Assembly: GCA_964553245.1 (NCBI GenBank)
Contig: CAZKJM010000001.1
Location: 16,892 to 80,891, forward strand
Origin: an uncultured Gammaproteobacteria bacterium
GTDB lineage: Bacteria > Patescibacteriota > Microgenomatia > Levybacterales > UBA12049
Reading direction: 5' to 3'
Length of the DNA stretch: 64,000 bases
Position numbers and translations under genes: made by a program. The notes beneath the pieces were generated by a model. That model worked only from the letters and a program-made list of their open reading frames with translations. It made no database searches and had not been told where the DNA came from. Positions 1-44,361 of the stretch are shown in pieces; within the stretch, counting starts at the first letter, position 1; every line of letters starts with the position of its first letter.

Positions 1-1127
1 GAACAAATGGTAAAACAACGACCGGTAAACTAATAACTGCAATATTAAAAGAGAATAACTCAAAAGTTATTCATAATGATTCAGGAGCAAATCTTTTAAA
101 CGGAATTGCATCTTCTCTTTTAAAAAATGTAGATAACAACGGTAAAATCAATGCTGATTACGCAATATTTGAAATCGATGAGAATACATTACCCAGCGCA
201 ATCGTAAATACAAATCCACATTTTGTTATCTGCCTAAATTTATTTAGAGACCAGCTGGATAGATATGGAGAAGTAGATGCAATTGCAAAAAAGTGGAAAA
301 ATTCATTCAGTAAATTAAACAACAGCACCATTTTTATAATGAATGCTGATGATCCTCTTATTGCAAATATTGCTTCAGGAATACAAAAAAAAATATATTA
401 TTTTGGTCTGGAAAATAAACAATTAGTAATTAAAGAAGAACAAAACGCTGCTGACTCTATCTACTGCCCAAACTGTCAAAATAAACTTGAATATGAAGAT
501 GTTTATTTTGCGCATTTAGGCAACTGGAAATGTTACCACTGCGAGTCAAGAAGACCAAAATTAGATATTTCGGAATATAAATATTATCCACTATTTGGAA
601 CTTATAACATATATAACACATTAGCTTCGGTTATGTTTGCGACTCTTAATAACATACCATTAGATAGAATTACTCAGGCATTTAAAAAATTTAAGCCGGC
701 ATTTGGAAGACAAGAAAAAATTAATTATAAAAATACAGATTTTTACTTGTATTTGTCGAAAAATCCGACAAGTTTTAACGAATCATTAAGAACCGTTAAC
801 AATTTAAACTCCACTGTACTTTTATTGATCTTAAATGACAGAATTCCAGACGGAAGAGATATTTCGTGGATCTACGACATCGATTTTGAAAAACTGTTGA
901 AAAAAAATCAAAAAATTATTATTTCGGGGGACAGAGCTTATGAAATGGCATTAAGAATAAAATATGCTGATATCATAAAAGATTATCTAGTTTTTGATGA
1001 TTTAAATGATGCAGTTAATTACATTATTAAAAAATATCAATTTCAATCTACAAATATCTATGCTCTTCCCACATACTCTGCAATGCTTGAATTAAGAAAA
1101 ATACTAACAGGAAAAAAAATACTATGA
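1..1127 (+). CDS. murT: Lipid II isoglutaminyl synthase, Mur-ligase-like subunit MurT (5' end cut by window edge; frame 3)
   Basis: ORF open from the window start in frame 3. Mur-ligase P-loop TNGKTTTGK at the first residues. Cys4 ribbon CPNCQNK...CYHC. C-terminal DUF1727-like region. Stop TGA overlaps the ATG of the next gene (ATGA). Confidence 0.85.
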   Translation, partial: TNGKTTTGKLITAILKENNSKVIHNDSGANLLNGIASSLLKNVDNNGKINADYAIFEIDENTLPSAIVNTNPHFVICLNLFRDQLDRYGEVDAIAKKWKNSFSKLNNSTIFIMNADDPLIANIASGIQKKIYYFGLENKQLVIKEEQNAADSIYCPNCQNKLEYEDVYFAHLGNWKCYHCESRRPKLDISEYKYYPLFGTYNIYNTLASVMFATLNNIPLDRITQAFKKFKPAFGRQEKINYKNTDFYLYLSKNPTSFNESLRTVNNLNSTVLLLILNDRIPDGRDISWIYDIDFEKLLKKNQKIIISGDRAYEMALRIKYADIIKDYLVFDDLNDAVNYIIKKYQFQSTNIYALPTYSAMLELRKILTGKKIL

Positions 1128-1867
1128 AATTAGTTATTGCGTGGCTATATCCAAACTTGATGAATACATACGGAGACAGGGGCAATATAATCTGTCTTAA
1201 AAAAAGATGTGAATGGAGAAATATTCAAACAGAAATTAAAGAGCTAAACATTGGATTTGATAAAAAATTACTTGACCAAGCTGATATTTTATTTATGGGA
1301 GGCGCACAGGATAAACAGCAGAGAATCGTAGAGAAAGATTTAAGAAATAAAAGAAATAATCTTGTAGAAATATTAAAAAATAATACCCCAGGATTATTTA
1401 TATGCGGAGCCTATCAACTATTTGGGAATTATTACAAAGACTCAAGCGGATTAACAATAAAAGGACTGGAAATTCTGAATATACATACAGAATCAAATAG
1501 ACACAAAAGAATGATCGGAAATATTTTAATAAAAACTGATTTTAACTCGGGAAATAAAATGATAATAGGTTTTGAAAATCATGGCGGAGAGACTTATTTA
1601 GAAAAAAATGTTAAGCCTTTTGGTAAAGTAATAAAAGGTTATGGAAACAATGGAGTAGATAAATATGAAGGTGTCCTATACAACAATTGGATATTTACAT
1701 ATATGCATGGACCACTGTTGCCTAAGAATCCGGAAATCGCTGACTTTTTAATTAAATGTGCTTTGGAAAAAAAATACAATACTAATATTCTACTTTCTAA
1801 ATTAGATGAGGAATTGGAAAAAAAAGCCAGAGAAACAATTGCAAGAAAGCTTAATATTAGACTATAA
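1124..1867 (+). CDS. gatD: Glutamine amidotransferase GatD (CobB/CobQ-like GATase partner of MurT)
   Basis: 247 aa. GATase class-I-like with nucleophile Cys in FICGAYQ and a His near the C-terminus. Translationally coupled to murT by a 4-nt overlap. Confidence 0.8.
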   Translation: MKLVIAWLYPNLMNTYGDRGNIICLKKRCEWRNIQTEIKELNIGFDKKLLDQADILFMGGAQDKQQRIVEKDLRNKRNNLVEILKNNTPGLFICGAYQLFGNYYKDSSGLTIKGLEILNIHTESNRHKRMIGNILIKTDFNSGNKMIIGFENHGGETYLEKNVKPFGKVIKGYGNNGVDKYEGVLYNNWIFTYMHGPLLPKNPEIADFLIKCALEKKYNTNILLSKLDEELEKKARETIARKLNIRL

Positions 1868-14544: not shown

Positions 14545-14973
14545 ATGACAACACTTCTTGAGATAATTACCCCAACGAAGTTAATATTACGTGAAGAAGT
14601 TGAAGAAGTAATCGTACCTACGCTTGATGGAGAAATCGCAATACTCCCAAACCACATCAAACTCTTAACTATGATTACTAATGGAGAATTGATTGTTAAA
14701 AAAAATAGTAAATCAACCTCCTATGCAATTACAGGAGGTTTTCTTGAAGTAGAAAATAATATCGTAAAAATATTAGCAGACTATGCCATTAGAGCAGATG
14801 ACATTGAATTGGCAAAAGTTCAAGAAGCTCACGAAAGAGCAAAAAAACTTATGGAAGAAAGAAGAGGTAAAGAAAATTTTGCATTCGCGGAATCAGAATT
14901 AAAAAGATCTCTCCTGGAATTAAAGCTCGCAAAAAAATATAAACCCAAATTGTCAAACAAATTCACTTCGTAA
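14545..14973 (+). CDS. atpC: F0F1 ATP synthase epsilon subunit
   Basis: 142 aa. Beta-sandwich N-terminus LDGEIAILPNH and helical C-terminus. Last gene of the operon. Confidence 0.85.
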   Translation: MTTLLEIITPTKLILREEVEEVIVPTLDGEIAILPNHIKLLTMITNGELIVKKNSKSTSYAITGGFLEVENNIVKILADYAIRADDIELAKVQEAHERAKKLMEERRGKENFAFAESELKRSLLELKLAKKYKPKLSNKFTS

Positions 14974-15087: not shown

Positions 15088-15795
15088 ATGAAAAGAACAA
15101 GACTATCTAGAAGATTAGAAAGAAAAACAAAAAAAACCTTTTTTTTAATGGCAATTACTATAATTGCCGTTTTGATTGCTTTTTTTAAATTTGGAATTCC
15201 TCTATTAATAAATGTAAGCTTATTTATATCTGGTATCGGTAAGAGTAATGAGATTGTTAAAAATGAACAAAAAAATTATATTGCTCCACCAACTATTAAT
15301 CCTTTAATTAGCGCAACAAATAGTGCGGAAATAAAAATAACCGGAAACGCGTTTAAAGATCAAAATATTTCTCTTTATGTAAACAACCGTTTTATTGAAT
15401 CAAATAAAACAAATGAAAAAGGTGAGTTTAGCTTTGAATATGTTTTGGAAAAGGGAGAAAATGAAATAAAAATAAGGGCAAAACAGGGAAATGATCAAAG
15501 TGACTTTTCACCTAGTCAAACTGTAAACTATATCAATAACCAACCTACTCTTGATATTAACACGCCAACAGACGGTCAAAATTTTTCGAAAGATAATAAA
15601 ACAGTAGAAGTTACAGGTAAAACAGATCCAGATGTGATAGTGACCGTAAATGATTTTATAGCAATATTAGACGAGAATAATAATTTTAAACACATCCTTA
15701 CACTTCGCGACGGTGATAACGAAATTATAGTATCTGCAACAGATCCTGCAGGCAATAAAATACAAAAAACCGTAAAAGTTAAGTATTCTCCGTAA
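15088..15795 (+). CDS. Membrane-anchored surface protein: basic N-terminus, one TM, two tandem bacterial Ig-like (Big-type) domains
   Basis: MKRTRLSRRLERKTKK then TM AITIIAVLIAFF. Two ~80-aa repeats ending ...GENEIKIRA and ...GDNEIIVSATDPAGN (Big_6-like pattern tG..dpdv.VtVn....tvd.nG.f...l.L.dG.N.I.v.AtDaAGN). Begins 4 nt after the tRNA-Thr. Confidence 0.55.
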   Translation: MKRTRLSRRLERKTKKTFFLMAITIIAVLIAFFKFGIPLLINVSLFISGIGKSNEIVKNEQKNYIAPPTINPLISATNSAEIKITGNAFKDQNISLYVNNRFIESNKTNEKGEFSFEYVLEKGENEIKIRAKQGNDQSDFSPSQTVNYINNQPTLDINTPTDGQNFSKDNKTVEVTGKTDPDVIVTVNDFIAILDENNNFKHILTLRDGDNEIIVSATDPAGNKIQKTVKVKYSP

Positions 15796-25183: not shown

Positions 25184-25892
25184 AAAATTTCATTTTAATA
25201 ACATGCAATAACGATGTAACCAACTCATTAAAATTAACATTTGATTTACCATAAATACGATAGTTCCAAGTAATTGGCACTTCAGAAATTTTAAAATTAT
25301 TTTTACTTAATTTGTATGCTATTTCCGATAATGCAATAAATCCCTTTGCTTTAATTTTTGTTTTTAATAAAAAAATTACTGCATTTCTACTATATAATCT
25401 AAATCCACTGGTATAGTCACTTATTTTTATATTTAGCCAAAAATATAAAAAGTAATTAATCAACCTACTCATTATTGTTCTATTCGGAGAAATATTATCA
25501 ATCTTACCACCTGATTTATATCGCGAGCCAATTACTAAATCGTAAGGATATACTTCAATTTCTTTAATAAATCTAGAAAATTCTTTTGGATCGTGAGCAA
25601 GATCGGAATCCATTTCAAAAATATAATCAATTTTTTTATATTTCAAAACTCTCTTAAAACCAATTAATACAGCGCTTCCTCTTCCAGATTTTTTTAACCT
25701 TGTAATCAACTCTATGTTCTTAAATTTTTTTATTATTTTCTTTATTTTTTCGTTTTCTTCCATTGCCGAATCATCAATAATTACAATTAATGCGTTTTTA
25801 AGATTCTTGTTTATTCCTGAAATTAAAATACTTATATTTTTTGACTCATTATAAGAAGGAATTACTACTGCAAAATTATTAATCTTCACCAT
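25176..25892 (-). CDS. GT2 polyprenol-phosphate sugar synthase (DPM1/GtrB-like, soluble 238 aa)
   Basis: VVIPSYNE...IIDDSAMEE...EMDSDLAHDP...GSRY...GFRL are DPM1-type motifs. Confidence 0.8.
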   Translation of the reverse strand: MVKINNFAVVIPSYNESKNISILISGINKNLKNALIVIIDDSAMEENEKIKKIIKKFKNIELITRLKKSGRGSAVLIGFKRVLKYKKIDYIFEMDSDLAHDPKEFSRFIKEIEVYPYDLVIGSRYKSGGKIDNISPNRTIMSRLINYFLYFWLNIKISDYTSGFRLYSRNAVIFLLKTKIKAKGFIALSEIAYKLSKNNFKISEVPITWNYRIYGKSNVNFNELVTSLLHVIKMKFFK

Positions 25893-27829
25893 AATTCTCC
25901 TTTGTTAACAATTTCATACAATGTAATGCTCCCTTTAAAATTATTACCTAACGAAATCTCATTAATTACTCTATCTTTATAAAATAAAGGAACTTTTGAC
26001 AAATTAATAAAATAGGGTTCATTTTTATAAGGAGTATCAAATCGGATTAATCCCGATATTGAATCATCTGTTTTTACATAAAGTATGCCATTATTATTTT
26101 TATTATAAGGCACTATCACTAACATTTTATTCTTAGAAGAAATTTTATTGCTCTTTAAATAATTGTTAAAAGCTAAGACACTATATTCATCAATGATTTT
26201 ATTGTTGTTTTTTAATACCTTTATTTTATGAACACCCTCTGAATAAGGAATTTTCGATAAGTTAACATTTAACAAAAAATTTCTATATTCATCAAACAAG
26301 ATGCCTTCTGTTTTAAAAAAGTCTTTATTTTCTTTTTTTAATACTAGATATTTGCCAATTTTTATTTCAGGGATATAATTATTAAGAATATAAGACAATT
26401 CGTTTGGAACTCTTATATATTCAGGAACTGAATCCTGTAATGATTTATTTTTTGTATTTAAAATTATTTTGTTAACATTATTTTTATTAAGATAGTCAAT
26501 CCTACTAAACTGACCTTTTAAAGTAGAACCATCATAAGTGCTTAAATAAAATGGTGGAGCTTGATTTAAAAAAGCATAAATAAAAGGATCTGAAGGAAAA
26601 CTAAAAATCTTGGCTATAATATTTTTCCTGTTAATGTAGTTAATTAAATTTGCAATATCCTTATCTTCAGAAAATATTTTATTTAGATTATTATCAACAC
26701 ATTGAATGCTATTAAGATTAGCTCTTATAAATAACCTGTTATCTGTTTTTATAATGTTAATGACGATAAAAGCAAAATTAAAAATTAAAACTAATAAAAT
26801 TAGTAAATTCCTAACTTTATTACCAATATTATAGTTTACTTTTATGTCTCTAATTATAAACGCGTATAAAATTATGCCGTAAATTATCAACTGCTCACTA
26901 ATAGATCTTAAAATGTTTTTTTGCTCAAGAATAATAATTAAGACTAACACTGAGACTTTTAATAAAAAAAACTTATCTTTGTTTCTTGTTTTTAAAATAA
27001 GTTGCAAACACAAACTTATTTCGACCAAAATAATTCCAAGGATAACATAAATATTATCTATGTTTTTAAGAGAAGGAGGAAAAGGAACTTTTGCAATTTT
27101 AGATAAATACGATAAATTTATTAAATAATCGTAGAAAGAAAATAGACTTGTTTTTGAAATTATAAAAACATAAAACGGCAAAGCGCCAATCGCTAATCCC
27201 AACGAGATATTAAATATTTTTTTAAAAGTATTAATGAACTGGCTTTTTTTGAATTTATTTAAAATATTTTTTGTAATTACAAAAAATAAAATTGAAATAT
27301 AAGAATATATTCCTGAATCAAAGAAAAGAAAAATCGTAAGACCCAAAATAATTCCAAATAAAAACTCTTTAGTTTTGCAATTTTTTTTATCGATATATAT
27401 AGTGTAAAAAATTAACATCGCTAAGGGTATCCCATATCTAATAAATTGATTTTCCATTCCTGTCAAAAAATATGATAAAAATATAAATATATAGAAAATA
27501 ACTGACACAATTCGTGACATAATTATCTTATTAATGGAGTAATAAAAAAAAGTTAAAAGCGTTGAAACTATTAAGAAAAATATCAAGCTGAATATAATAT
27601 TCTGATTTTTATAGTAAAATAACAATCCATAGGGATAAAAAATATCTACATAAGGCAATAAATTTTTAACCTGTGCGTATTGCCAAAAAATAAAATGATG
27701 TGTATCAAAATTAAAATTTTTATATAAAATACAATTATTTATTATTAAGTAAACATTTAAAATACTACTTATTAAAAAAATCGTAACTATTTCTATGTTT
27801 TTGTATAATTTATCAATTATTTTTTTCAT
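25886..27829 (-). CDS. Very large polytopic membrane protein, GT-C/YfhO-like candidate glycosyltransferase with a C-terminal extracytoplasmic domain
   Basis: 647 aa. First loop FDTHHFIFWQYAQVKNLLPYVDIFYPYGLLFYY resembles the YfhO-type D.(F/H)H...P.W....FY.P..YY motif. 14+ predicted TM. Confidence 0.5.
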   Translation of the reverse strand: MKKIIDKLYKNIEIVTIFLISSILNVYLIINNCILYKNFNFDTHHFIFWQYAQVKNLLPYVDIFYPYGLLFYYKNQNIIFSLIFFLIVSTLLTFFYYSINKIIMSRIVSVIFYIFIFLSYFLTGMENQFIRYGIPLAMLIFYTIYIDKKNCKTKEFLFGIILGLTIFLFFDSGIYSYISILFFVITKNILNKFKKSQFINTFKKIFNISLGLAIGALPFYVFIISKTSLFSFYDYLINLSYLSKIAKVPFPPSLKNIDNIYVILGIILVEISLCLQLILKTRNKDKFFLLKVSVLVLIIILEQKNILRSISEQLIIYGIILYAFIIRDIKVNYNIGNKVRNLLILLVLIFNFAFIVINIIKTDNRLFIRANLNSIQCVDNNLNKIFSEDKDIANLINYINRKNIIAKIFSFPSDPFIYAFLNQAPPFYLSTYDGSTLKGQFSRIDYLNKNNVNKIILNTKNKSLQDSVPEYIRVPNELSYILNNYIPEIKIGKYLVLKKENKDFFKTEGILFDEYRNFLLNVNLSKIPYSEGVHKIKVLKNNNKIIDEYSVLAFNNYLKSNKISSKNKMLVIVPYNKNNNGILYVKTDDSISGLIRFDTPYKNEPYFINLSKVPLFYKDRVINEISLGNNFKGSITLYEIVNKGELW

Positions 27830-34608: not shown

Positions 34609-36456
34609 ATGCTGGAACTATTTGCATCCTTAATTAACAACGTTATTAACAACTTAAGGTTTTTAACTCAGGATTTTATTGGTATTCAAATAAATTACAC
34701 ATATATCGTTAACGTATTTTTTTCGTTTTTACTTTCTTTATTTCTTTTGCCTTTTATTTTTTTAACAGGTATTAAGATAAGAAAATTGTTTTTTAAAAGC
34801 GTGTCTGAATCAACATACAAGTATTTAATTGATTTTTCATTGGGATATATCTTTATTTCATCTTTAATAGGAATACTTGGATTCGTATCATTACTTTATA
34901 GGAATTATTTACTTTTAATATTTATGTTTATATTTATAATTTCATTATTTCATTTTAGAACATCATTTATTTATTTAAATAAACTGATTTTTTACTTTAA
35001 ATCCAGCTTGAAAGACGTATATAAAAATAAGTTTGTTTTTACATTCTTGTTCTTGTTTATTTTATTAGCAATAGTAAATTTAATAAATTTAGAAACAAGG
35101 GAAGATCAATATCATATAGATTTTGCGAAAATGTATCTTCAAAATAACACGATAATGATCGAACCAAAGGAACAGCTCGAGGTTTCCGGAGCACCGATGC
35201 TTTCTGAAATGTATTACGTAATTGGATTAACGTTCAACTTAATGGAATTTGCCAGATTTAATCACTTTTACTTTTATATTTTAATTTTAATAATATTAAT
35301 TGAATTTTCTAAAAATAAAAAAAATAAATTTGCAATCTACGCACCAATAATATTTGCAAGCGCGCCGGTAATAATAAAAGAAACCTCATCTTCATATGTT
35401 GATTTTCAATGGATTTTTTGTTTTATTCTTGCTGCGTTTATCATAAATCAAAAATTTAAACACAATTTAATAATAGCTGGAATTATTACAGGAGGAATGC
35501 TTGCAGGAAAAATGTGGACCATTCCTTTTTTAAGCGTTTATATTTTTTATATAGTCCTATTAAATCGGAAAAATAAATTTTTAGATACAATCAAAAAAAT
35601 ATTTATATTTACATTTTTTGCGTTTTTAATTTCTTCTTTATGGTATTTAAGATCATACTTATTAACAGGAACTCCGATTTTCCCCGTTATGATTAATCAA
35701 AGCAATAATGTAGTCTCATTTGCATCTAAATTTGATAGATACATTGGGGTAAATTTTCCTTTTATAAATATTTTTTCTTATTTCAATGTCTATAGTCCGC
35801 TTTTTTATTATGGGTTAATTTTGTTTTTTTATAAATTCAAAAAGAACTTTTCTGTATTAATCAAAAATGATATTTTCCTTTTTCTTTTTTTAACTTTTTT
35901 ATTATTTATTTTTATTCACTATCCTTTTGGAAGATACACAATGGGAATTTACGTTTTATTTTCAATTTTTTCATCTATAGGGATAAATAATTTCCATCTT
36001 AAATTTAGGAATGGAAAATATATAACCGGGATAATTTTATTACTTATATTTTCTTATTATTTCTTAAATTCATTAATGCAATTGCCATATGCAATCGGCT
36101 TTGCTAACGAAAATAAATATTTAACAAGAGTTTTATCCAGAGATGGATCAAGCTATTATAATTTTGATAATAAATTTGAAAAACATTTTAATAAGAATGA
36201 TTGCATTGCAACCTATAAAATATTCGGATTTTATTATGCAAATTTTTGTTATTCAGATATAAATTTTATTTTAAATAAAGAAGAAAAGTCTTTAAATACG
36301 CTGAAAAAGAAAGGTTTTACAAAATTATTAACTAAAATGGAAAACGCAGAAGGTTTTTGTAAAACTGAAAGAATTAAAAACTGTAATAATAAAAGTTTTA
36401 AATTAATAGATAGTTATATGGGAGTAAATAATTATTATCTATACGAATTAAAATAA
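34609..36456 (+). CDS. Large polytopic membrane protein (615 aa), GT-C-like candidate
   Basis: More than 12 TM. Early loop LINLETREDQYHIDFAKMYL carries an acidic pair. Tandem with a similar gene. Confidence 0.5.
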   Translation: MLELFASLINNVINNLRFLTQDFIGIQINYTYIVNVFFSFLLSLFLLPFIFLTGIKIRKLFFKSVSESTYKYLIDFSLGYIFISSLIGILGFVSLLYRNYLLLIFMFIFIISLFHFRTSFIYLNKLIFYFKSSLKDVYKNKFVFTFLFLFILLAIVNLINLETREDQYHIDFAKMYLQNNTIMIEPKEQLEVSGAPMLSEMYYVIGLTFNLMEFARFNHFYFYILILIILIEFSKNKKNKFAIYAPIIFASAPVIIKETSSSYVDFQWIFCFILAAFIINQKFKHNLIIAGIITGGMLAGKMWTIPFLSVYIFYIVLLNRKNKFLDTIKKIFIFTFFAFLISSLWYLRSYLLTGTPIFPVMINQSNNVVSFASKFDRYIGVNFPFINIFSYFNVYSPLFYYGLILFFYKFKKNFSVLIKNDIFLFLFLTFLLFIFIHYPFGRYTMGIYVLFSIFSSIGINNFHLKFRNGKYITGIILLLIFSYYFLNSLMQLPYAIGFANENKYLTRVLSRDGSSYYNFDNKFEKHFNKNDCIATYKIFGFYYANFCYSDINFILNKEEKSLNTLKKKGFTKLLTKMENAEGFCKTERIKNCNNKSFKLIDSYMGVNNYYLYELK

Positions 36457-39907: not shown

Positions 39908-40984
39908 TTACTGAGTATTTTTCCAAAGCTTTAAGTAGATATCTGCAATATCTGTCCATGTTTTATCCATTACCCATTTATATCCATTATCGACCATATT
40001 CTTATACTTAAAATTATTATTCACAACGTCCATTATTCCCCTAGATAATTCTTTTGAATTTTTAAAAATAAGTATAAAGTTTTTAAATGGAGTATTCACT
40101 AAGTAATCTTTTTTAATTCCATTGTTATACAAAGCAAATACAATCTTTTTTGACACTAAAGACTCAAATATGCCTAAGTATCTAGAAACAAAAATAAATT
40201 TATAATTTTTAATTTGCTCGTCTGCATTTGAAATAAAACCCTTAAATTGAATTTTTAACTTATTATTTTTAGCAAAAATTTTCGCTGCTTTTCCTAATGA
40301 ACCATCGCCATAAACATCGAGTGCAATATTTATTTTTTTTGATTTTAATATTTTTATAGCTTTTAGATAATCCATTATTCCTGTTTCTTTTTCCAATCTA
40401 CCAATAAACATTGCTTTATTAAAAGCTACAGATTTATCTTTAATTTTAATGTATTTTACAGCTCCGTATATTATATGATTTGGTTTTGTCCTATACCACT
40501 TTTCATAAAAGTTTCCAACGCAAATATTTCCCTTTGTTAGCTTTTCTGCAAGCTTATGCATAAAAATCGATCTCTTGTTAGGAATTGAGTTTCCTTCATA
40601 TCCGTGAAACGTAACAAAAACCTTTTTATTAGGGTAAATGAATCTAAACGGAAGATACCAATAAAAAATATCGTGACAATGAATAATATCCGCGTCTTTA
40701 ATAATATTTTTAATTTTAAATAATTCTTTCCATGCTTTAAGTTTTTCTAACTTATTTACCTTACCGTTGTTTATATAAATTATTCTTATTTTATCGATTT
40801 CTCCCGTCATCTTATCACTTAAAAGCATTGATTGATAATCCGTGTTTTGAGAAAAACTCTCTTTTGAAGTAATTACAGTAATACTATGACCTTTTTTAAT
40901 AAGTTCTTTTCCTAATTCCAAACAATGTTTCTCTACTCCACCAATATGGGGGTAAAAATACCTACACAAAAAAATAATTTTCAT
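39908..40984 (-). CDS. Glycosyltransferase family 4 (GT-B)
   Basis: MKIIFLCRYFYPHIGGVEKHCLELGKELIKKGHSITVIT is a GT4 N-terminal signature. 358 aa. Confidence 0.8.
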   Translation of the reverse strand: MKIIFLCRYFYPHIGGVEKHCLELGKELIKKGHSITVITSKESFSQNTDYQSMLLSDKMTGEIDKIRIIYINNGKVNKLEKLKAWKELFKIKNIIKDADIIHCHDIFYWYLPFRFIYPNKKVFVTFHGYEGNSIPNKRSIFMHKLAEKLTKGNICVGNFYEKWYRTKPNHIIYGAVKYIKIKDKSVAFNKAMFIGRLEKETGIMDYLKAIKILKSKKINIALDVYGDGSLGKAAKIFAKNNKLKIQFKGFISNADEQIKNYKFIFVSRYLGIFESLVSKKIVFALYNNGIKKDYLVNTPFKNFILIFKNSKELSRGIMDVVNNNFKYKNMVDNGYKWVMDKTWTDIADIYLKLWKNTQ

Positions 40985-41709
40985 TTCTTCCTAGCAACAA
41001 TAATAAAATTAGATTCACCGAATAGATAAACAAGCAAATTGTCTATTAATGTTAAGGAATCTGAGAAAATAAATTTTATAAATTTTATACCTTTTCCTGC
41101 GACACTATTAGTAAATAGAAAATTTCGAAGTATCCCTTCAACCTTTTTTACTTCTATAATATTAAAACCATTCCTTTCTATTTTATTACATAATTCATCG
41201 ATCGAATATCGTCTTAAATGACCAACCTTTTTATCGAATTTTTTTAATAGGCCCATTCTATAAAGCGGTGCACTTTTGGATGGAGCAGACAAAAACAGTA
41301 AACCATTTTTATCTAACATTTTTTTTATTTTTTTCAGAACATATTCATCTTTTTTTAAATGCTCTATCACCTCTGTTAATAAAATTAAATTATATCTACC
41401 AGCAATGTATTGTTTGGGAAAATCAATAACACGAAAATTTACATATTCACTTAGGTTTAAATATCTTGCAGTTGATGAGCTAGCCCTAATTGCATTTATT
41501 GATATATCTACTCCCAAGACCTTAATGCCTTTACTTCCTAAATATAAACTCAATGTTCCCGCCCCACATCCTATATCCAATGCGGTGGCAATACTTGCAA
41601 TATATTTATCTAAAACTTCCAAAATTAATCGATATGTAAAATCTTTTTTATTTATTATTTTCTTTTGAACCGATGTGTATTTATGAAAAAGGTTATAATT
41701 TATTTCCAT
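40981..41709 (-). CDS. Class I SAM-dependent methyltransferase
   Basis: ALDIGCGAGTLS motif I. LKKDGLLFLSAP-like motif. Confidence 0.75.
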   Translation of the reverse strand: MEINYNLFHKYTSVQKKIINKKDFTYRLILEVLDKYIASIATALDIGCGAGTLSLYLGSKGIKVLGVDISINAIRASSSTARYLNLSEYVNFRVIDFPKQYIAGRYNLILLTEVIEHLKKDEYVLKKIKKMLDKNGLLFLSAPSKSAPLYRMGLLKKFDKKVGHLRRYSIDELCNKIERNGFNIIEVKKVEGILRNFLFTNSVAGKGIKFIKFIFSDSLTLIDNLLVYLFGESNFIIVARKK

Positions 41710-41719
41710 TCGCTTAAGT

Positions 41720-41748
41720 ATTTTACCACTGTGTATATTTATTCACAA
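41720..41748 (-). promoter_or_regulatory. Minus-strand promoter TTGTGA-N17-TAAAAT, 10 nt upstream of the ATG of the methyltransferase/GT4 operon (near-leaderless)
   Basis: The reverse complement of 41743-41748 is TTGTGA. The reverse complement of 41720-41725 is TAAAAT. Confidence 0.35.
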
Positions 41749-41835
41749 ACGAATTATTCATAGTTGAATTATGTTGTAAATTTTTTAGATTTTCTATCTT
41801 GACAAAGATATTAAAAGTATACTTATATTAAAATT

Positions 41836-43644
41836 GTGAATAAAAAATTATTATTACGATCAATGTTAGTAACTTTAATCGGTATACTATACTTTATTAA
41901 TCCAAATACCGTTCATGGAACAACAACTATATTTAAAGACGACTTCGAAAATGGAAATATTAATCAATGGACAAGCGTAAGGGGTCCAGCTAATTTATGG
42001 CAAATAAAACAAATAAATGGAACTAACATGCTTGGAGCAAGAATTGAGAATGGTAGCACCATCATTGATAGCATCGCCAAATCAACTCAAATTGCAACAT
42101 CAAGCTATGTATTAGAGTTTGATTACTTAACAATTACTGGAATTGATAATAGCTTAGATTCTCGATGGACATATAATTTAACTGAGGACTATTATGACGT
42201 AAAGGAAGTTCATTATCTTGGAGAAAATAATGTCTGGACAAATTTCGGATGCGTAAATTTTATAAACTCATCTACGCTGAAATATAATTTTTTAAACCAC
42301 ATTAAAATCATTTACGAAAACCAACGCATGCAATTTTATTTAAATAACATAAAAATAATTGATTATAATGATACGAATTATTTATTTCCAGGGAATGAGT
42401 ACATAGGTATAAGAATAAGTACTGGAGCAAGTTATCCAAAAGAAGCATGGTTTGATAATATTTTAGTAACAAGCCTAGAAGACGAACCAGGTTTAGATAT
42501 TCCATTATTAAAGCAAACTGATCCCCTTTGGAAAGATGAAGTTTATGATACTGCTATGAATTGGTCTCCAAGCGATCCAACTATAAATTCCTGGGGTTGT
42601 GCAATGACCTCTGCTGCAATGATCTTGAACTATCATAAAATCGTAAATCTACCCAATGGAGAAATGTTAAATCCAAAAACACTTAACGAATGGCTTAAAA
42701 ACCAACCTGATGGATACATAGGTAATGGGCTAACCAATTGGTTAGCCATATCAAGATTATCAAAACTTGCAAAAGAAAGCGGGAATAACCAAAGTTTTAA
42801 TTACGATTCTCTGGAATATATACGCAACAAGGGAGAAGATAGGCAGCTGTTAACAGATGACCTTAAAAATCTACACCCAGATATCCTTGAGCAACAAGGT
42901 CATTTTGTCGTCGCAACCGGCATATCTGGAGAAACTTTTCTAATAAATGATCCCTATTTCAACAGAACAACATTAAATGATGGATACAATAATACATTTT
43001 TATCTCTCGGAAGATATATTCCATCCAATAGCGACCTTTCTTATTTTATGTTTACGACTAAACCCGATGTTAATATTGAATTGAAAGATGTAAACGGAAA
43101 CATTGTAGAATCTGAATTTTCTGAAGAACAAATCATTAATCATGATAATCAAACAAACGGAGAAAAGATAAAAATAGTTTATTTTCCGAAACCGGAATCT
43201 GGTAAATACAAACTAATTTTTAGCTCGAAACTCAGCAGCCTTAGAACGTTTAAATCGTATGTTTATGATTTAAACGGAAATGTTAAAATACAGGAATCCG
43301 ATAAAGCCCTAATCAATTCATTGCCAACGATATTTAATGTTAACTTTGACAAAAATAATCTAAATTATTATAAACTAGAGAAAACAGTTAGTTTTGAGAG
43401 TACGATCAGAGACATTGAATATTTCATCAAAACTGGATCTATAAAAAATAAAGATTTCGGAAATGCCCTCATAACCTTGGTTAAAAATACAAAGAAATAT
43501 ACTAATAGGAATATGATAAAAATTGCAAAAATAAATTTAAACCAAGCAAAAAAATTAATTTCAACTACAAAAGGTATATTAATAAATAAAGATGCTTACG
43601 AGACTATAAACTACGATTTAGATTATCTTCTAAAAAATTTATAA
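41836..43644 (+). CDS. Secreted multidomain protein: signal peptide, concanavalin/LamG-like jelly-roll domain, C39-like papain-fold cysteine peptidase domain, ~200-aa C-terminal region of unknown function
   Basis: MNKKLLLRSMLVTLIGILYFINPNTVHG signal peptide. FKDDFENGNINQWTSVRGP...W lectin-fold start. WSPSDPTINSWGCAMTSAAMILNYHKI (catalytic Cys context of Peptidase_C39_2) and QGHFVVATGISGETFLINDPY (His/Asp). GTG start at 41836. Confidence 0.6.
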   Translation: MNKKLLLRSMLVTLIGILYFINPNTVHGTTTIFKDDFENGNINQWTSVRGPANLWQIKQINGTNMLGARIENGSTIIDSIAKSTQIATSSYVLEFDYLTITGIDNSLDSRWTYNLTEDYYDVKEVHYLGENNVWTNFGCVNFINSSTLKYNFLNHIKIIYENQRMQFYLNNIKIIDYNDTNYLFPGNEYIGIRISTGASYPKEAWFDNILVTSLEDEPGLDIPLLKQTDPLWKDEVYDTAMNWSPSDPTINSWGCAMTSAAMILNYHKIVNLPNGEMLNPKTLNEWLKNQPDGYIGNGLTNWLAISRLSKLAKESGNNQSFNYDSLEYIRNKGEDRQLLTDDLKNLHPDILEQQGHFVVATGISGETFLINDPYFNRTTLNDGYNNTFLSLGRYIPSNSDLSYFMFTTKPDVNIELKDVNGNIVESEFSEEQIINHDNQTNGEKIKIVYFPKPESGKYKLIFSSKLSSLRTFKSYVYDLNGNVKIQESDKALINSLPTIFNVNFDKNNLNYYKLEKTVSFESTIRDIEYFIKTGSIKNKDFGNALITLVKNTKKYTNRNMIKIAKINLNQAKKLISTTKGILINKDAYETINYDLDYLLKNL

Positions 43645-43655
43645 ATTATTGGCTG

Positions 43656-43729
43656 TGGACTTGAGAGGATTCGAACCTCTGACCTCTTCGATGTGAACGA
43701 AGCGCTCTAACCAACTGAGCCACAAGTCC
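43656..43729 (-). tRNA. tRNA-Val(CAC): tRNA-Val, anticodon CAC, no encoded CCA
   Basis: Reverse complement folds as GGACTTG-TG-GCTC-AGTTGGTTA-GAGC-G-CTTCG-TTCACAT-CGAAG-AGGTC-AGAGG-TTCGAAT-CCTCT-CAAGTCC-A. Confidence 0.8.
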
Positions 43730-43739
43730 ATATTCTAGA

Positions 43740-43768
43740 ATCTTACCACAATTTAGCCTCATTGACAA
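43740..43768 (-). promoter_or_regulatory. Minus-strand promoter TTGTCA-N17-TAAGAT for tRNA-Val; overlaps the 5' end of the divergent lepB ORF
   Basis: The reverse complement of 43763-43768 is TTGTCA. The reverse complement of 43740-43745 is TAAGAT. tRNA 5' end at 43729. Confidence 0.4.
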
Positions 43769-44361
43769 AATTAAATAAATTTAAGACAATCATATATGTG
43801 TTAAATATTTTACGAAAAATTTATTCCTTCTTTTTAGATACAATTCAGACATTTTTGCTTGCAGCTGCTGTATTTTTAATTATCTATGCGTTTTTATTTA
43901 GACCATTCGAAGTCAAAGGAGATTCAATGTATCCTAATTTTAAGGACAAACAATATACACTTACCAACCTTATTAGCTTAAAGTTTTCCGACCCAAAAAG
44001 AGGTGATGTGATCGTTTTTAAAGCACCGAACGATACAGAAAAAGATTACATTAAAAGAATAATCGGTGTTCCTGGCGACGTAGTTTCGGTTAAAGACGGT
44101 AATATTTACCTTAATAAAACCCTAATGGATCAAAGCTCATTTTTAAAGCCCGATATTAAAACATATGGCGGAAGTTTTATGAAAGAAGGGGAAGAATATA
44201 TTGTTCCCCAAGGTTATTTTTTAACGATGGGTGACAATAGACCATACAGCTCGGACTCACGTGAATGGGGATATGTAGAAAAATCAAAGATCATTGGAAT
44301 CGCAATATTTGTTTATTGGCCAATAGGGGAAATAAAAGTAATACAAAATCCACTTAAATAA
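43762..44361 (+). CDS. lepB: Signal peptidase I (start uncertain: TTG at 43762 or GTG at 43798)
   Basis: KGDSMYPNF (catalytic Ser box). RGDVIVFKAP. GDNRPYSSDSREWGYV (box E). Confidence 0.85.
   Translation: MTKLNKFKTIIYVLNILRKIYSFFLDTIQTFLLAAAVFLIIYAFLFRPFEVKGDSMYPNFKDKQYTLTNLISLKFSDPKRGDVIVFKAPNDTEKDYIKRIIGVPGDVVSVKDGNIYLNKTLMDQSSFLKPDIKTYGGSFMKEGEEYIVPQGYFLTMGDNRPYSSDSREWGYVEKSKIIGIAIFVYWPIGEIKVIQNPLK

What the first reader, a model, noticed from the sequence alone, without database searches (positions are those of the whole stretch)
41836..43644. Secreted lectin-fold + C39-like cysteine peptidase two-domain protein at the island edge
After a signal peptide comes a ~190-aa Con A/LamG-like jelly-roll (FKDDFENGNINQWTSVRGP...). 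The next domain is an unmistakable papain-like C39_2-type peptidase: nucleophile context INSWGCAMTSAAMILNYHK, and QGHFVVATGISGETFLINDPY supplying His/Asp. Last is ~200 aa with no recognisable motif. C39-like domains outside bacteriocin ABC transporters occur in cell-wall/peptide-processing enzymes such as BtrH-type gamma-glutamyl hydrolases. Carbohydrate-binding plus peptidase next to a glycosylation island suggests a glycan- or glycoprotein-directed peptidase (envelope remodelling, or processing of a glycosylated substrate). Its own promoter (TTGACA at 41799) is divergent from the MTase operon.
Basis: partly seen in the sequence, partly recalled or inferred. Interest (0 to 1): 0.55.

Follow-up and report, generated by a model that had tools for sequence, protein, structure and literature searches.

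The report
Secreted modular C39-like cysteine peptidase
This gene encodes an exported cysteine peptidase with an intact active site, flanked by sugar-binding-type modules, from an uncultured Microgenomates (CPR) bacterium; it belongs to a large uncharacterised family whose front domain is swapped between lineages, and its substrate is unknown.

Summary
ORF 41836..43644 (+) encodes a 602-aa protein with a signal peptide, a Con A-like jelly-roll (res 29-214) and a Peptidase_C39_2 domain (Pfam E 1e-9, above cut-off). Gln227, Cys255, His356 and Asp372 are invariant in 115 homologs, and the last three align on the proven triad of the LahT protease.

The "motif-less" last 200 aa form a beta-sandwich plus a four-helix bundle (FIMAH-like). 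This is the same pair that ends a secreted GH92 mannosidase.

The family is large (about 1050 50%-identity clusters at E<=1e-30) and found almost only in Microgenomates-group Patescibacteria. The peptidase, beta-sandwich and helix-bundle core is constant. The N-terminal domain is exchanged (LamG, Kelch, BNR, GH130-like, PQQ) even between genes in the same syntenic slot upstream of LepB-ParB-L27-L21-RodA-IleRS.

A GT4 and a SAM-methyltransferase are recurrent upstream neighbours, but one ortholog directly abuts the ATP synthase operon with no glycan island.

An exact TTGACA box is conserved across orthologs and is placed for a leaderless or near-leaderless mRNA.

Best reading: an active envelope peptidase docked by glycan-binding modules. 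The substrate (wall peptide or surface glycoprotein) is unresolved. This is an uncharacterised variant of a known enzyme kind, of moderate interest.

The parts
41799..41804 (+). -35 box TTGACA of the gene's own promoter
   Evidence: Read directly. The 47 nt upstream of the start are identical in the 75%-identical ortholog locus L002. The exact TTGACA is conserved 29-60 nt upstream of the start codon in 11 of 16 distinct orthologous loci whose flanks have diverged. The generic promoter scan did not call this site, and promoter-like sites in the region are not above chance.
41824..41829 (+). -10-like box TATATT (19-nt spacer), 6 nt before the start codon
   Evidence: Read directly. The spacing places the transcription start at or next to the GTG, so the mRNA would be leaderless or nearly so. 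No Shine-Dalgarno sequence is present. This is an inference, not a measurement.
41836..43644 (+). Complete ORF, 602 aa, GTG start, TAA stop
   Evidence: 100% identical to database protein P0001 apart from the annotated start.
41836..41919 (+). Sec-type signal peptide, residues 1-28 (MNKKLLLRS / MLVTLIGILYFI / NPNTVHG, predicted cleavage G28|T29)
   Evidence: The n-region carries K3, K4 and R8. The hydrophobic core scores up to 2.7 on Kyte-Doolittle. The model shows a helix at 3-20 followed by a low-pLDDT linker at 22-26. Nearly all 115 homologs start with the same kind of sequence. There is no lipobox Cys and no LPXTG motif.
41920..42477 (+). Con A-like (LamG/DUF1080/CBM66-like) beta-jelly-roll, residues 29-214
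   Evidence: Foldseek against the PDB gives 4jqt (BT3469), 1oq1 (YesU), calreticulin, GH16 and ERGIC-53, with E 1e-7 to 4e-6. PF06439 is weak in this protein (E 0.012) but is precomputed in 10 homologs. A profile match to levanase CBM66 (4azz) has E 0.008.
42478..43035 (+). Peptidase_C39_2 papain-fold catalytic domain, residues 215-400
42514..42516 (+). Gln227 codon, candidate oxyanion-hole residue
   Evidence: Invariant in 115 sequences. Coordinate verified. The role is inferred from its position at the start of the C39_2 profile and by analogy with Gln21 of LahT.
42598..42600 (+). Cys255 codon, nucleophile
   Evidence: Invariant. It is the first residue of helix 255-266 in the model. It aligns with Cys27 of LahT150 and with the Cys of 3erv.
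42901..42903 (+). His356 codon, general base
   Evidence: Invariant. It is the first residue of strand 356-364. It aligns with His101 of LahT150.
42949..42951 (+). Asp372 codon, third triad member
   Evidence: Invariant. It directly follows strand 367-371. It aligns with Asp117 of LahT150, with the same 16-residue His-to-Asp spacing.
43036..43386 (+). Beta-sandwich domain, residues 401-517
43387..43641 (+). Four-helix bundle (FIMAH-like), residues 518-602
40981..41709 (-). Divergently transcribed SAM-dependent methyltransferase (242 aa), a recurrent neighbour
   Evidence: Pfam Methyltransf_23/12/31/11. A match lies directly upstream and divergent in 28 of 88 fetched loci, and 21 of them are at least 40% identical. 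These include loci that lack the LepB-ParB block.
39908..40984 (-). GT4 glycosyltransferase (358 aa), a recurrent neighbour
   Evidence: Pfam Glyco_transf_4 and Glycos_transf_1. Matches at 25-53% identity lie upstream in 31 of 88 loci.
43655..43729 (-). tRNA-Val(CAC) on the opposite strand, separating the peptidase gene from lepB
   Evidence: ARAGORN. It implies that the peptidase gene is monocistronic.
43762..44361 (+). Signal peptidase I (LepB), a conserved downstream neighbour; the real start is probably the GTG at 43798
   Evidence: Pfam Peptidase_S26, E 1e-45. It lies downstream in 36 of 88 loci. Homology to orthologs begins at residues 13-16 of the listed ORF. TTGACA-17-GACAAT precedes the GTG at 43798.

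Best explanation
The gene encodes a Sec-exported, catalytically competent clan-CA cysteine endopeptidase of the C39-like (Pfam Peptidase_C39_2) kind that works outside the membrane on the cell envelope.

Shown:
- A signal peptide.
- An N-terminal Con A-like jelly-roll.
- A papain-fold domain with invariant Gln227, Cys255, His356 and Asp372. The last three superpose in sequence on the triad of the proven LahT protease.
- A C-terminal beta-sandwich plus four-helix bundle of the type appended to secreted glycoside hydrolases.
- A peptidase, beta-sandwich and bundle core that models as one compact, co-conserved unit.
- An N-terminal module that is exchangeable. Five different lectin or propeller-type domains occupy it in genes at the same chromosomal slot.

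Inferred:
- The non-catalytic modules dock the enzyme onto a surface glycan. The most economical candidate is the cell's own wall-associated polysaccharide or glycoconjugate made by the adjacent Wzx/Wzy island.
- Docking holds the catalytic domain against a chemically conserved peptide of the envelope.
- My preferred substrate is the peptidoglycan stem peptide or cross-link. That would make this an autolysin-like remodelling enzyme addressed by a secondary wall glycan, as many Gram-positive autolysins are.
- The catalytic chemistry would be the standard thiolate-imidazolium acyl-enzyme mechanism.

The gene is monocistronic. It is transcribed from its own conserved sigma-70-type promoter, probably as a leaderless or near-leaderless mRNA.
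For: Architecture and active site:
- Pfam C39_2 is above cut-off.
- Q227, C255, H356 and D372 are invariant in 115 sequences.
- The models have pLDDT 91 and 96. Cys sits at a helix N-terminus, and His and Asp sit on adjacent strands.
- The residue-level alignment places C255, H356 and D372 on Cys27, His101 and Asp117 of LahT.

Export:
- The signal peptide is present in almost all members.

Glycan-type modules:
- N-terminal Con A-like fold.
- N-terminal alternatives in homologs are Kelch, BNR/sortilin, GH130-like and PQQ propellers and Laminin_G_3.
- The C-terminal pair resembles the CBM32 plus four-helix bundle of NnGH92. Removing that bundle roughly halved binding to yeast cell walls.

Constant core, variable address:
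- The peptidase domain is 55-66% identical across the family. The beta-sandwich is 29-41%, the bundle 16-39%, and the N-terminal domain 10-67% (closest ortholog P0002 left out).
- LamG, Kelch, GH130-like, BNR and PQQ types all occur in the LepB-ParB slot.
- pTM is 0.91 for residues 215-602 against 0.74 for the full length.

Housekeeping character:
- Synteny with LepB-ParB-L27-L21-RodA/FtsW-IleRS is conserved.
- The gene's GC content is closer to the backbone than to the island.

Precedents for a wall-peptide substrate in this structural cluster:
- PeiR pseudomurein endoisopeptidase.
- The 3erv-like N5 domain of mycobacteriophage LysA endolysins.
- The single viral structural hit is a cyanophage 'lysozyme'.

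The organism makes Gram-positive-type peptidoglycan: MurT/GatD and RodA/FtsW are in the window.

Glycan link:
- GT4 and methyltransferase orthologs recur upstream.
- The island is a Wzx/Wzy surface-glycan locus.
Against: - No activity data exist for any member, and no substrate is identified.
- None of the 120 listed homologs carries a classical peptidoglycan-binding module such as LysM, SH3b, PG_binding, SLH or CWB.
- There is no PHROG match and no relative in viral contigs, so there is no close tie to endolysins.
- The nearest relatives with proven activity cleave peptides or proteins (LahT, ComA, staphopain, streptopain), not peptidoglycan.
- Carbohydrate binding by any of the three non-catalytic domains is untested. 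PF06439 and FIMAH are below Pfam cut-offs in this protein.
- The island link may be purely positional. One ortholog abuts ATP synthase with no glycan genes.
- I could not inspect model coordinates, so the Cys-His distance is inferred from topology and alignment, not measured.
Confidence: 0.45

Rival explanations
1. Surface-(glyco)protein maturation or shedding protease. The lectin-type modules recognise a glycosylated surface protein (S-layer subunit, pilin or adhesin). The C39-like domain cleaves it, as Cwp84 (a cysteine protease with a lectin-like domain) processes SlpA in Clostridioides difficile, or as LapG releases LapA.
For: - The closest relatives with proven activity are peptide or protein proteases (LahT150, ComA, staphopains, streptopain).
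- The island encodes several outward-acting GT-C enzymes of the protein-O-mannosyltransferase type (PMT_2, PTPS_related) and a Wzy_C protein, a family that includes O-oligosaccharyltransferases.
- GT4 and methyltransferase orthologs stay next to the peptidase gene even where the downstream synteny is lost.
- The Cwp84 and LapG analogies come from my own knowledge.
Against: - No candidate substrate gene is conserved next to the peptidase.
- The catalytic domain is unusually uniform across lineages (55-66% identity). That fits an invariant chemical substrate better than a co-evolving protein.
- One ortholog lacks any neighbouring glycosylation genes.
Confidence: 0.28
2. Host-directed factor of an episymbiont. 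The enzyme is released or displayed to attack the envelope or surface proteins of the host cell. The swappable N-terminal domain would determine which host surface glycan is recognised.
For: - Replacement of a whole domain at the N-terminus between positional orthologs is the pattern seen in specificity determinants.
- Patescibacteria are generally thought to live attached to hosts (general knowledge; for example PMC8406219 as listed).
- The protein has no membrane anchor, lipobox or sortase signal (read from the sequence).
Against: - The gene sits in a conserved housekeeping neighbourhood, and the loci fetched from species-representative genomes show no genome with two copies.
- Between close relatives the N-terminal domain is the best-conserved part (89% against 56-81% for the other domains), so there is no sign of diversifying selection.
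- No host is known for any Microgenomates lineage, so nothing can be tested here.
Confidence: 0.14
3. Same fold, different chemistry. The Cys-His-Asp site would catalyse transpeptidation, acyl transfer or amide or glycoside cleavage on a glycoconjugate rather than endopeptidase hydrolysis. Precedents are phytochelatin-synthase-like Alr0975, BtrH-type acyltransferases, and the archaeal C39-like protein reported to hydrolyse beta-galactoside analogues.
For: - A 2026 paper reports weak glycosidase activity for an archaeal C39-like protein (PMC13642728).
- The enzyme is embedded among carbohydrate-type modules and next to a glycan locus.
Against: - The archaeal protein has Asn in place of the triad Asp. 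This family keeps the canonical Asp invariantly.
- The best sequence and structure matches are true peptidases.
- The reported glycosidase rate is very low and was measured on artificial substrates.
Confidence: 0.08
4. Canonical C39 role (removal of double-glycine leader peptides from bacteriocin or signalling precursors), or else an inactive C39-like binding domain.
Against: - PF03412 is below its cut-off (18.9 against 22 bits).
- The protein has a signal peptide and is not fused to or next to an ABC transporter. No small precursor genes are nearby. Canonical C39 domains act on the cytoplasmic side.
- The inactive-domain reading is excluded, because the catalytic Cys that HlyB-type C39-like domains lack is invariant here, together with His, Asp and Gln.
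Confidence: 0.03

Closest known systems
Stand-alone C39-like peptidases of Pfam PF13529 (Bacillus anthracis 3ERV; YvpB-type proteins of Firmicutes; E. faecalis OG1RF_12322)
   Same: - Same Pfam family, with the score above cut-off.
- The Cys, His and Asp motifs align.
- These proteins are also exported rather than fused to a transporter.
   Different: - Those proteins are about 200-260 aa and consist of a single domain.
- This one adds a Con A-like domain in front and a beta-sandwich plus four-helix bundle behind.
- It has a roughly 27-residue insert between the conserved Gln and the Cys.
- None of these proteins has a demonstrated substrate.
C39 peptidase domains of PCAT/AMS ABC transporters (LahT150, ComA, PCAT1)
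   Same: - The Cys27, His101 and Asp117 triad aligns residue for residue, with identical His-to-Asp spacing.
   Different: - Those domains are cytoplasmic, fused to an ABC exporter, and specific for double-glycine leaders.
- This protein is Sec-exported and free-standing, scores below the PF03412 cut-off, and has no linked exporter or precursor.
Pseudomurein endoisopeptidases PeiW/PeiP/PeiR, and the C39-like N5 domain of mycobacteriophage LysA
   Same: - The N5 domain was matched to 3erv.
- They show that this fold cluster is used to cut cell-wall peptides.
   Different: - They are phage or prophage lysins with wall-binding repeats of other kinds.
- This family has no detectable phage relatives.
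- It sits in a housekeeping locus.
Cwp84 of Clostridioides difficile (a surface cysteine protease with a lectin-like domain that matures the S-layer precursor)
   Same: The design principle is the same: a papain-fold protease joined to a lectin-like beta-sandwich and surface-retention modules, acting on an envelope protein. This is an analogy from my own knowledge and was not tested here.
   Different: - Cwp84 belongs to a different peptidase family (C1A, cathepsin-L-like).
- It has a cleavable propeptide, its lectin-like domain lies C-terminal to the protease, and it is anchored by CWB2 repeats.
Non-catalytic tail of secreted glycoside hydrolases (NnGH92: CBM32 plus four-helix bundle; Pfam FIMAH)
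   Same: - FIMAH is detected in 11 family members.
   Different: - Here the tail is attached to a peptidase instead of a glycosidase.
- The beta-sandwich has no CBM32 sequence signature.
- The function of the bundle is unknown even in NnGH92.

Membership tests
Pfam Peptidase_C39_2 (PF13529), clan CA papain-like peptidases | Profile match above the curated gathering score | tested here: met
   39.4 bits against a cut-off of 24, E 1.1e-9. Residues 220-374 cover profile positions 1-143 of 143.
Pfam Peptidase_C39_2 (PF13529), clan CA papain-like peptidases | Catalytic Cys, His and Asp (plus oxyanion Gln) present and conserved | tested here: met
   Q227, C255, H356 and D372 are invariant in 115 homologs. 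They align with the Cys, His and Asp of 3erv and with Cys27, His101 and Asp117 of LahT150.
Pfam Peptidase_C39_2 (PF13529), clan CA papain-like peptidases | Papain-like fold, with Cys at a helix N-terminus facing His and Asp on adjacent strands | tested here: met
   [not shown]
MEROPS C39 / Pfam Peptidase_C39 (PF03412), bacteriocin-processing peptidases | Profile match above the gathering score | tested here: not met
   18.9 bits against a cut-off of 22. Only residues 348-381 match.
MEROPS C39 / Pfam Peptidase_C39 (PF03412), bacteriocin-processing peptidases | N-terminal cytoplasmic domain of an ABC exporter, or encoded with one, together with double-glycine precursor genes | tested here: not met
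   The protein has a signal peptide and no ABC domains. No exporter or small precursor gene was seen in the window neighbourhood or in 8 inspected orthologous loci.
MEROPS C39 / Pfam Peptidase_C39 (PF03412), bacteriocin-processing peptidases | Cleavage after a Gly-Gly leader motif | not testable with these tools
   Needs an enzyme assay.
Concanavalin A-like lectin/glucanase superfamily (PF06439 DUF1080 / CBM66 / LamG) | Beta-jelly-roll fold | tested here: met
   Foldseek probability is 1.00 and E 1e-7 to 4e-6 to BT3469 (4jqt), YesU (1oq1), calreticulin, GH16 and ERGIC-53.
Concanavalin A-like lectin/glucanase superfamily (PF06439 DUF1080 / CBM66 / LamG) | Sequence-profile membership in a specific family | tested here: inconclusive
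   PF06439 scores 16.1 bits against a cut-off of 26.8 in this protein. Ten homologs carry precomputed PF06439 hits and two carry PF13385. The CBM66 levanase profile hit has E 0.008.
Concanavalin A-like lectin/glucanase superfamily (PF06439 DUF1080 / CBM66 / LamG) | Carbohydrate binding | not testable with these tools
   Needs a glycan array or ITC.
Pfam FIMAH (PF22888) four-helix bundle | Profile match above cut-off, and a four-helix bundle at the C-terminus | tested here: inconclusive
   [not shown]
Peptidoglycan hydrolases / autolysins | Catalytic domain of an established peptidoglycan-peptidase family, or a classical wall-binding module (LysM, SH3b, PG_binding, SLH, CWB, SPOR) | tested here: not met
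   [not shown]
Peptidoglycan hydrolases / autolysins | Hydrolysis of muropeptides or sacculi | not testable with these tools
   Needs an enzyme assay.

The most novel reading that the evidence does not exclude
The family is the wall or surface peptidase of Microgenomates, and its address module is matched to the strain's own hypervariable surface glycan. On this reading, N-terminal domain swaps (LamG, Kelch, BNR, GH130-like, PQQ) track changes in the adjacent Wzx/Wzy island. That would give a lock-and-key pairing between a cell's glycan coat and its envelope peptidase. Alternatively, the pairing could be with the glycan coat of the host that the episymbiont attaches to.
Probability: 0.18. Interest if true: 0.65.

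Novelty: new variant of a known kind. Interest (0 to 1): 0.4.

Why it matters
Microgenomates and other CPR bacteria are uncultured, have tiny genomes and carry few recognisable envelope-remodelling enzymes. This family has about 1000 clusters at 50% identity, sits in a conserved core locus and is clearly catalytically intact. It is therefore a good candidate for a basic envelope function, such as wall turnover, cell separation or surface-protein processing.

Its constant catalytic core with an exchangeable lectin or propeller address domain next to a variable glycan locus gives a concrete hypothesis for how such cells coordinate wall chemistry with wall enzymes, or how they recognise partners. 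The hypothesis can be tested with recombinant protein alone.

If the substrate turns out to be ordinary, the finding reduces to a better annotation of a 'C39 family peptidase'.

Tried and rejected
- **Full-length PDB sequence search:** only a spurious PI4P-5-kinase hit (E 0.008).
- **NCBIfam:** no family.
- **PHROGs:** no family.
- **Viral contigs:** 57 pattern matches, none confirmed.
- **BFVD viral structures:** a single marginal hit, so an endolysin origin is not supported.
- **Foldseek of the full-length model:** it returned only N-terminal-domain hits. A second model of residues 215-602 was needed.
- **AFDB fold search:** the library was unavailable.
- **Pfam scan of the whole alignment:** I used the precomputed Pfam columns instead.
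- **Generic promoter scan:** it did not call the TTGACA site, and promoter-like sites are not above chance (14 found against 17.4 expected). The promoter claim rests on cross-species conservation.
- **Leaderless arrangement as a general feature of the window:** only 2 of 22 TTGACA sites have it, which is no more than permuted hexamers give. No general claim is made.
- **Literature:** the FIMAH search returned only fimA/fimH papers, and the YvpB search was uninformative.
- **Rejected readings:** pseudo-peptidase (all catalytic residues are invariant); canonical bacteriocin-leader peptidase (exported, no transporter); operon with lepB (an opposite-strand tRNA lies between them).
Full report
**1. 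Observation**

The quoted sequence strings are all present: F33-P51, I250-K268 with C255, and Q354-Y374 with H356 and D372. TTGACA lies at 41799-41804.

The gene is real. Pfam finds Peptidase_C39_2 over residues 220-374 (E 1.1e-9, 39.4 bits against a cut-off of 24). There are 190 significant homologs among the scored candidates. A profile search of 1.84 billion cluster representatives finds 1050 proteins at E<=1e-30. AlphaFold models are confident, with mean pLDDT 91.1 for the full length and 95.9 (pTM 0.91) for residues 215-602.

**2. Anatomy**

Residues 1-28 form a standard Sec signal peptide (K3, K4, R8; hydrophobic core; VHG|T). It appears only if the GTG start is used. The database copy P0001 starts at the internal ATG 41863 and loses the charged n-region. 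The 75%-identical ortholog has GTG at the same place and Leu at position 10, which supports the GTG start.

Residues 29-214 form a Con A-like jelly-roll.
- The best Foldseek hits to solved structures are the DUF1080 protein BT3469, galectin-like YesU, calreticulin, GH16 glucanases and ERGIC-53, with E 1e-7 to 4e-6.
- PF06439 is weak in this protein but is present in 10 homologs.
- The family profile touches levanase CBM66 (E 0.008).

Residues 215-400 form the papain-fold peptidase.

Residues 401-517 are a beta-sandwich, and residues 518-602 are a four-helix bundle.
- The paper on that structure describes exactly such a C-terminal CBM32 followed by a four-helix bundle of unknown function. Deleting the bundle roughly halved binding to yeast cell walls.
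- Pfam's FIMAH family matches the bundle weakly here (E 0.014) and is precomputed in 11 homologs.

**3. Active site**

Gln227, Cys255, His356 and Asp372 are invariant in an alignment of 115 family members. A peptidase-domain-only profile aligns WGCA, HFVV and INDP onto RGCE, HCVV and IRDP of 3erv, and onto ECGA, HFVV and INDP of LahT150. The LahT paper gives its triad as Cys27 (on helix alpha1), His101 and Asp117 (on adjacent strands), with Gln21 as the candidate oxyanion residue. In the alignment, chain positions 27, 101 and 117 fall exactly on C255, H356 and D372. The His-to-Asp spacing is 16 residues in both.

In the model, C255 opens helix 255-266, H356 opens strand 356-364, and D372 follows strand 367-371. 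This is the canonical papain arrangement. The non-catalytic C39-like domains of HlyB-type exporters lack the Cys, and this family never does. I could not read atomic distances because coordinates are not returned.

**4. Family and domain swapping**

Named members come from Levybacteria, Woesebacteria, Roizmanbacteria, Cerribacteria, 'Microgenomates' and 'Patescibacteria group', with a few from Paceibacterota or Parcubacteria. Many MAG records are labelled 'uncultured Gammaproteobacteria' but carry the same locus, so those names are evidently placeholders.

Domain lengths are strikingly constant for the peptidase (173-185 aa) and, in most members, for the beta-sandwich (about 110-120 aa) and the bundle (about 85 aa). 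The N-terminal region is either about 195-250 aa or about 330-380 aa.

According to the precomputed Pfam content:
- the long N-termini are Kelch (about 30 of the 120 listed), BNR/sortilin (5), PF04041/GH130-like (5), PQQ (2) or DUF5122 (1) propellers;
- the short N-termini are LamG/DUF1080-like;
- five members add Fn3 and CHB_HEX modules after the beta-sandwich.

Per-domain identity to the window protein among the 20 closest homologs, leaving out the 75%-identical P0002, is 55-66% for the peptidase, 29-41% for the beta-sandwich, 16-39% for the bundle and 10-67% for the N-terminal domain. Between the two closest relatives the N-terminal domain is the best-conserved part (89%). Change therefore happens by replacing the whole domain, not by rapid point divergence.

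The higher pTM of the 215-602 model (0.91 against 0.74) suggests that the three C-terminal domains form one rigid unit, with the N-terminal domain attached more loosely.

**5. Genomic context**

Upstream on the opposite strand lie a 242-aa SAM-methyltransferase, a GT4, two more methyltransferases, GT-C-type membrane proteins (PTPS_related; GT2+PMT_2), nucleotide-sugar enzymes, GT2s, a sugar C-methyltransferase, a Wzx flippase and a Wzy_C protein. Together these make a Wzx/Wzy-type surface-glycan locus from about 15.8 to 41.7 kb with GC 0.258.

Downstream lie tRNA-Val on the opposite strand, signal peptidase I, then ParB, L27, L21, FtsW/RodA and IleRS on the minus strand. The left flank holds MurT/GatD, GatA/GatB, a GGDEF protein, DnaE and the ATP synthase operon, which ends at 14973.

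In 8 inspected orthologous loci and 80 loci from species-representative genomes (88 in all, 3 of them fetched twice):
- LepB follows the peptidase gene in 36, ParB in 33, L27 in 29, L21 in 28 and RodA in 25;
- the divergent methyltransferase lies directly upstream in 28 (21 of them at 40% identity or more);
- the GT4 lies upstream in 31.

In locus L004 the ATP synthase epsilon gene is the immediate upstream neighbour and there is no glycan island. The island is therefore a variable insertion between two backbone blocks, and the peptidase gene (GC 0.305; flanks 0.325) belongs to the backbone.

On the other hand, the methyltransferase and GT4 neighbours persist in loci that have lost the LepB-ParB block (for example L007, L021, L025 and L037). 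A functional tie to glycan synthesis therefore cannot be dismissed.

LamG (11), Kelch (7), GH130-like (3), BNR (2) and PQQ (1) N-termini all occur in the LepB-ParB slot. Positional orthologs therefore carry different address domains.

**6. Promoter**

The generic scan does not call the site, and promoter-like matches in this AT-rich region are not above chance. Conservation is what supports the claim.
- The 47 nt before the GTG are identical in the 75%-identical ortholog locus.
- An exact TTGACA is present 29-60 nt upstream of the start codon in 11 of 16 distinct orthologous intergenic regions whose surrounding sequence has diverged. About 0.03 occurrences per 100 nt would be expected from base composition (my estimate).

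In the window, TTGACA (41799-41804) is followed after 19 nt by TATATT (41824-41829), and the GTG follows 6 nt later with no Shine-Dalgarno sequence. This predicts a leaderless or near-leaderless transcript. lepB shows the same layout (TTGACA-17-GACAAT, with GTG at 43798). Only 2 of 22 TTGACA sites in the window have this layout, no more than permuted hexamers give, so I make no general claim.

**7. Function**

Shown: an exported clan-CA cysteine peptidase with an intact active site, framed by modules of the kinds attached to secreted carbohydrate-active enzymes. It has a constant catalytic core and an exchangeable N-terminal domain, and it sits in a conserved core locus beside a variable glycan island.

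Inferred: the modules dock the enzyme on a surface glycan, and the catalytic domain cuts a conserved envelope peptide.

I favour a peptidoglycan stem or cross-link peptide, for these reasons:
- The catalytic core is highly uniform.
- PeiR and the LysA N5 domain are precedents in this fold cluster.
- The locus has a housekeeping character.
- From general knowledge, Gram-positive autolysins are commonly addressed by secondary wall polymers.

The absence of any classical wall-binding module or phage relative weakens this reading.

The main rival is a Cwp84/LapG-like surface-glycoprotein protease. It is supported by the protein-O-mannosyltransferase-type GT-C enzymes and the Wzy_C protein in the island, and by the protein-protease neighbours in fold space. 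A host-directed role, non-peptidase chemistry and the canonical leader-peptidase role are less likely. The pseudo-enzyme reading is excluded.

**8. Comparison and novelty**

The protein is a member of Pfam Peptidase_C39_2. It is not a member of the bacteriocin-processing C39 family in the strict sense: it scores below that family's cut-off, it is exported, and it has no transporter.

NCBI already labels relatives 'C39 family peptidase'. One Microgenomates genome paper lists a signal-peptide-bearing C39 peptidase without further analysis. I found no study of this architecture or of its domain swapping.

I rate it a new variant of a known kind, of moderate interest. It is a solid annotation upgrade with a testable hypothesis, not a surprise in kind.

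Noticed in passing
window 41709-41836, and loci L002, L006, L016, L021, L024, L028, L036, L049, L052, L055, L062: The short divergent intergenic region between the methyltransferase and the peptidase gene keeps an exact TTGACA across distant orthologs. In many of them the start codon lies only 29-35 nt after it and has no Shine-Dalgarno sequence, which suggests leaderless or near-leaderless mRNAs in Microgenomates.
   Followed up: partly
window 43762-43800: The listed lepB ORF starts at a TTG that is itself the first base of a TTGACA-17-GACAAT promoter-like site. Homology to orthologs begins at residues 13-16, so the real start is probably the in-frame GTG at 43798, again right after the -10-like box.
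   Followed up: partly
window 41863 (protein P0001): The public annotation of the identical protein starts at an internal ATG (593 aa). This removes the positively charged n-region of the signal peptide, so localisation predictors run on the database entry could miss the export signal.
   Followed up: yes
window about 15779-41709: A 26-kb low-GC (0.258) Wzx/Wzy-type surface-glycan locus. It encodes Wzy_C, a Wzx flippase, several GT2, GT4 and GT-C (PMT_2, PTPS_related) enzymes, four methyltransferases including a sugar C-methyltransferase, RmlD, a UDP-GlcNAc 2-epimerase and a Polysacc_synt_2 dehydratase. It is absent from the same position in ortholog locus L004, where ATP synthase abuts the peptidase gene.
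   Followed up: partly
window 25886-27829 (-) and 34609-36456 (+): Two large ORFs (646 and 615 aa) inside the island have no Pfam match. The 615-aa one has orthologs (40-44% identity) at the same relative position in six other loci, next to the PTPS_related GT-C protein.
   Followed up: no
window 339-1867: A MurT C-terminal domain protein and a CobQ-type glutamine amidotransferase (a GatD-like pair). This is the lipid II iso-glutamine amidation system typical of Gram-positive peptidoglycan, and it bears on which stem peptide a wall peptidase would meet.
   Followed up: no
window 43655-43729 (-): tRNA-Val(CAC) is encoded on the opposite strand in the 117-nt gap between the peptidase gene and lepB.
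   Followed up: yes
window 15088-15795 (+): A 235-aa ORF with a Glucodextranase domain B (PF09136) match sits between the ATP synthase operon and the island, at the other edge of the island.
   Followed up: no
loci L014, L015, L017, L019, L022 and many others: Dozens of MAG records titled 'uncultured Gammaproteobacteria' or 'uncultured Pseudomonadales' carry this Microgenomates-specific gene and, in many cases, the same LepB-ParB-L27-L21-RodA synteny. The organism names in those records look like placeholders or errors.
   Followed up: no
proteins P0081, P0083, P0085, P0104, P0109 (locus L007): A subfamily of about 1040 aa inserts Fn3, CHB_HEX_C and Pur_ac_phosph_N-type modules after the beta-sandwich. 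In L007 the gene is followed by a Y1 transposase rather than lepB.
   Followed up: no
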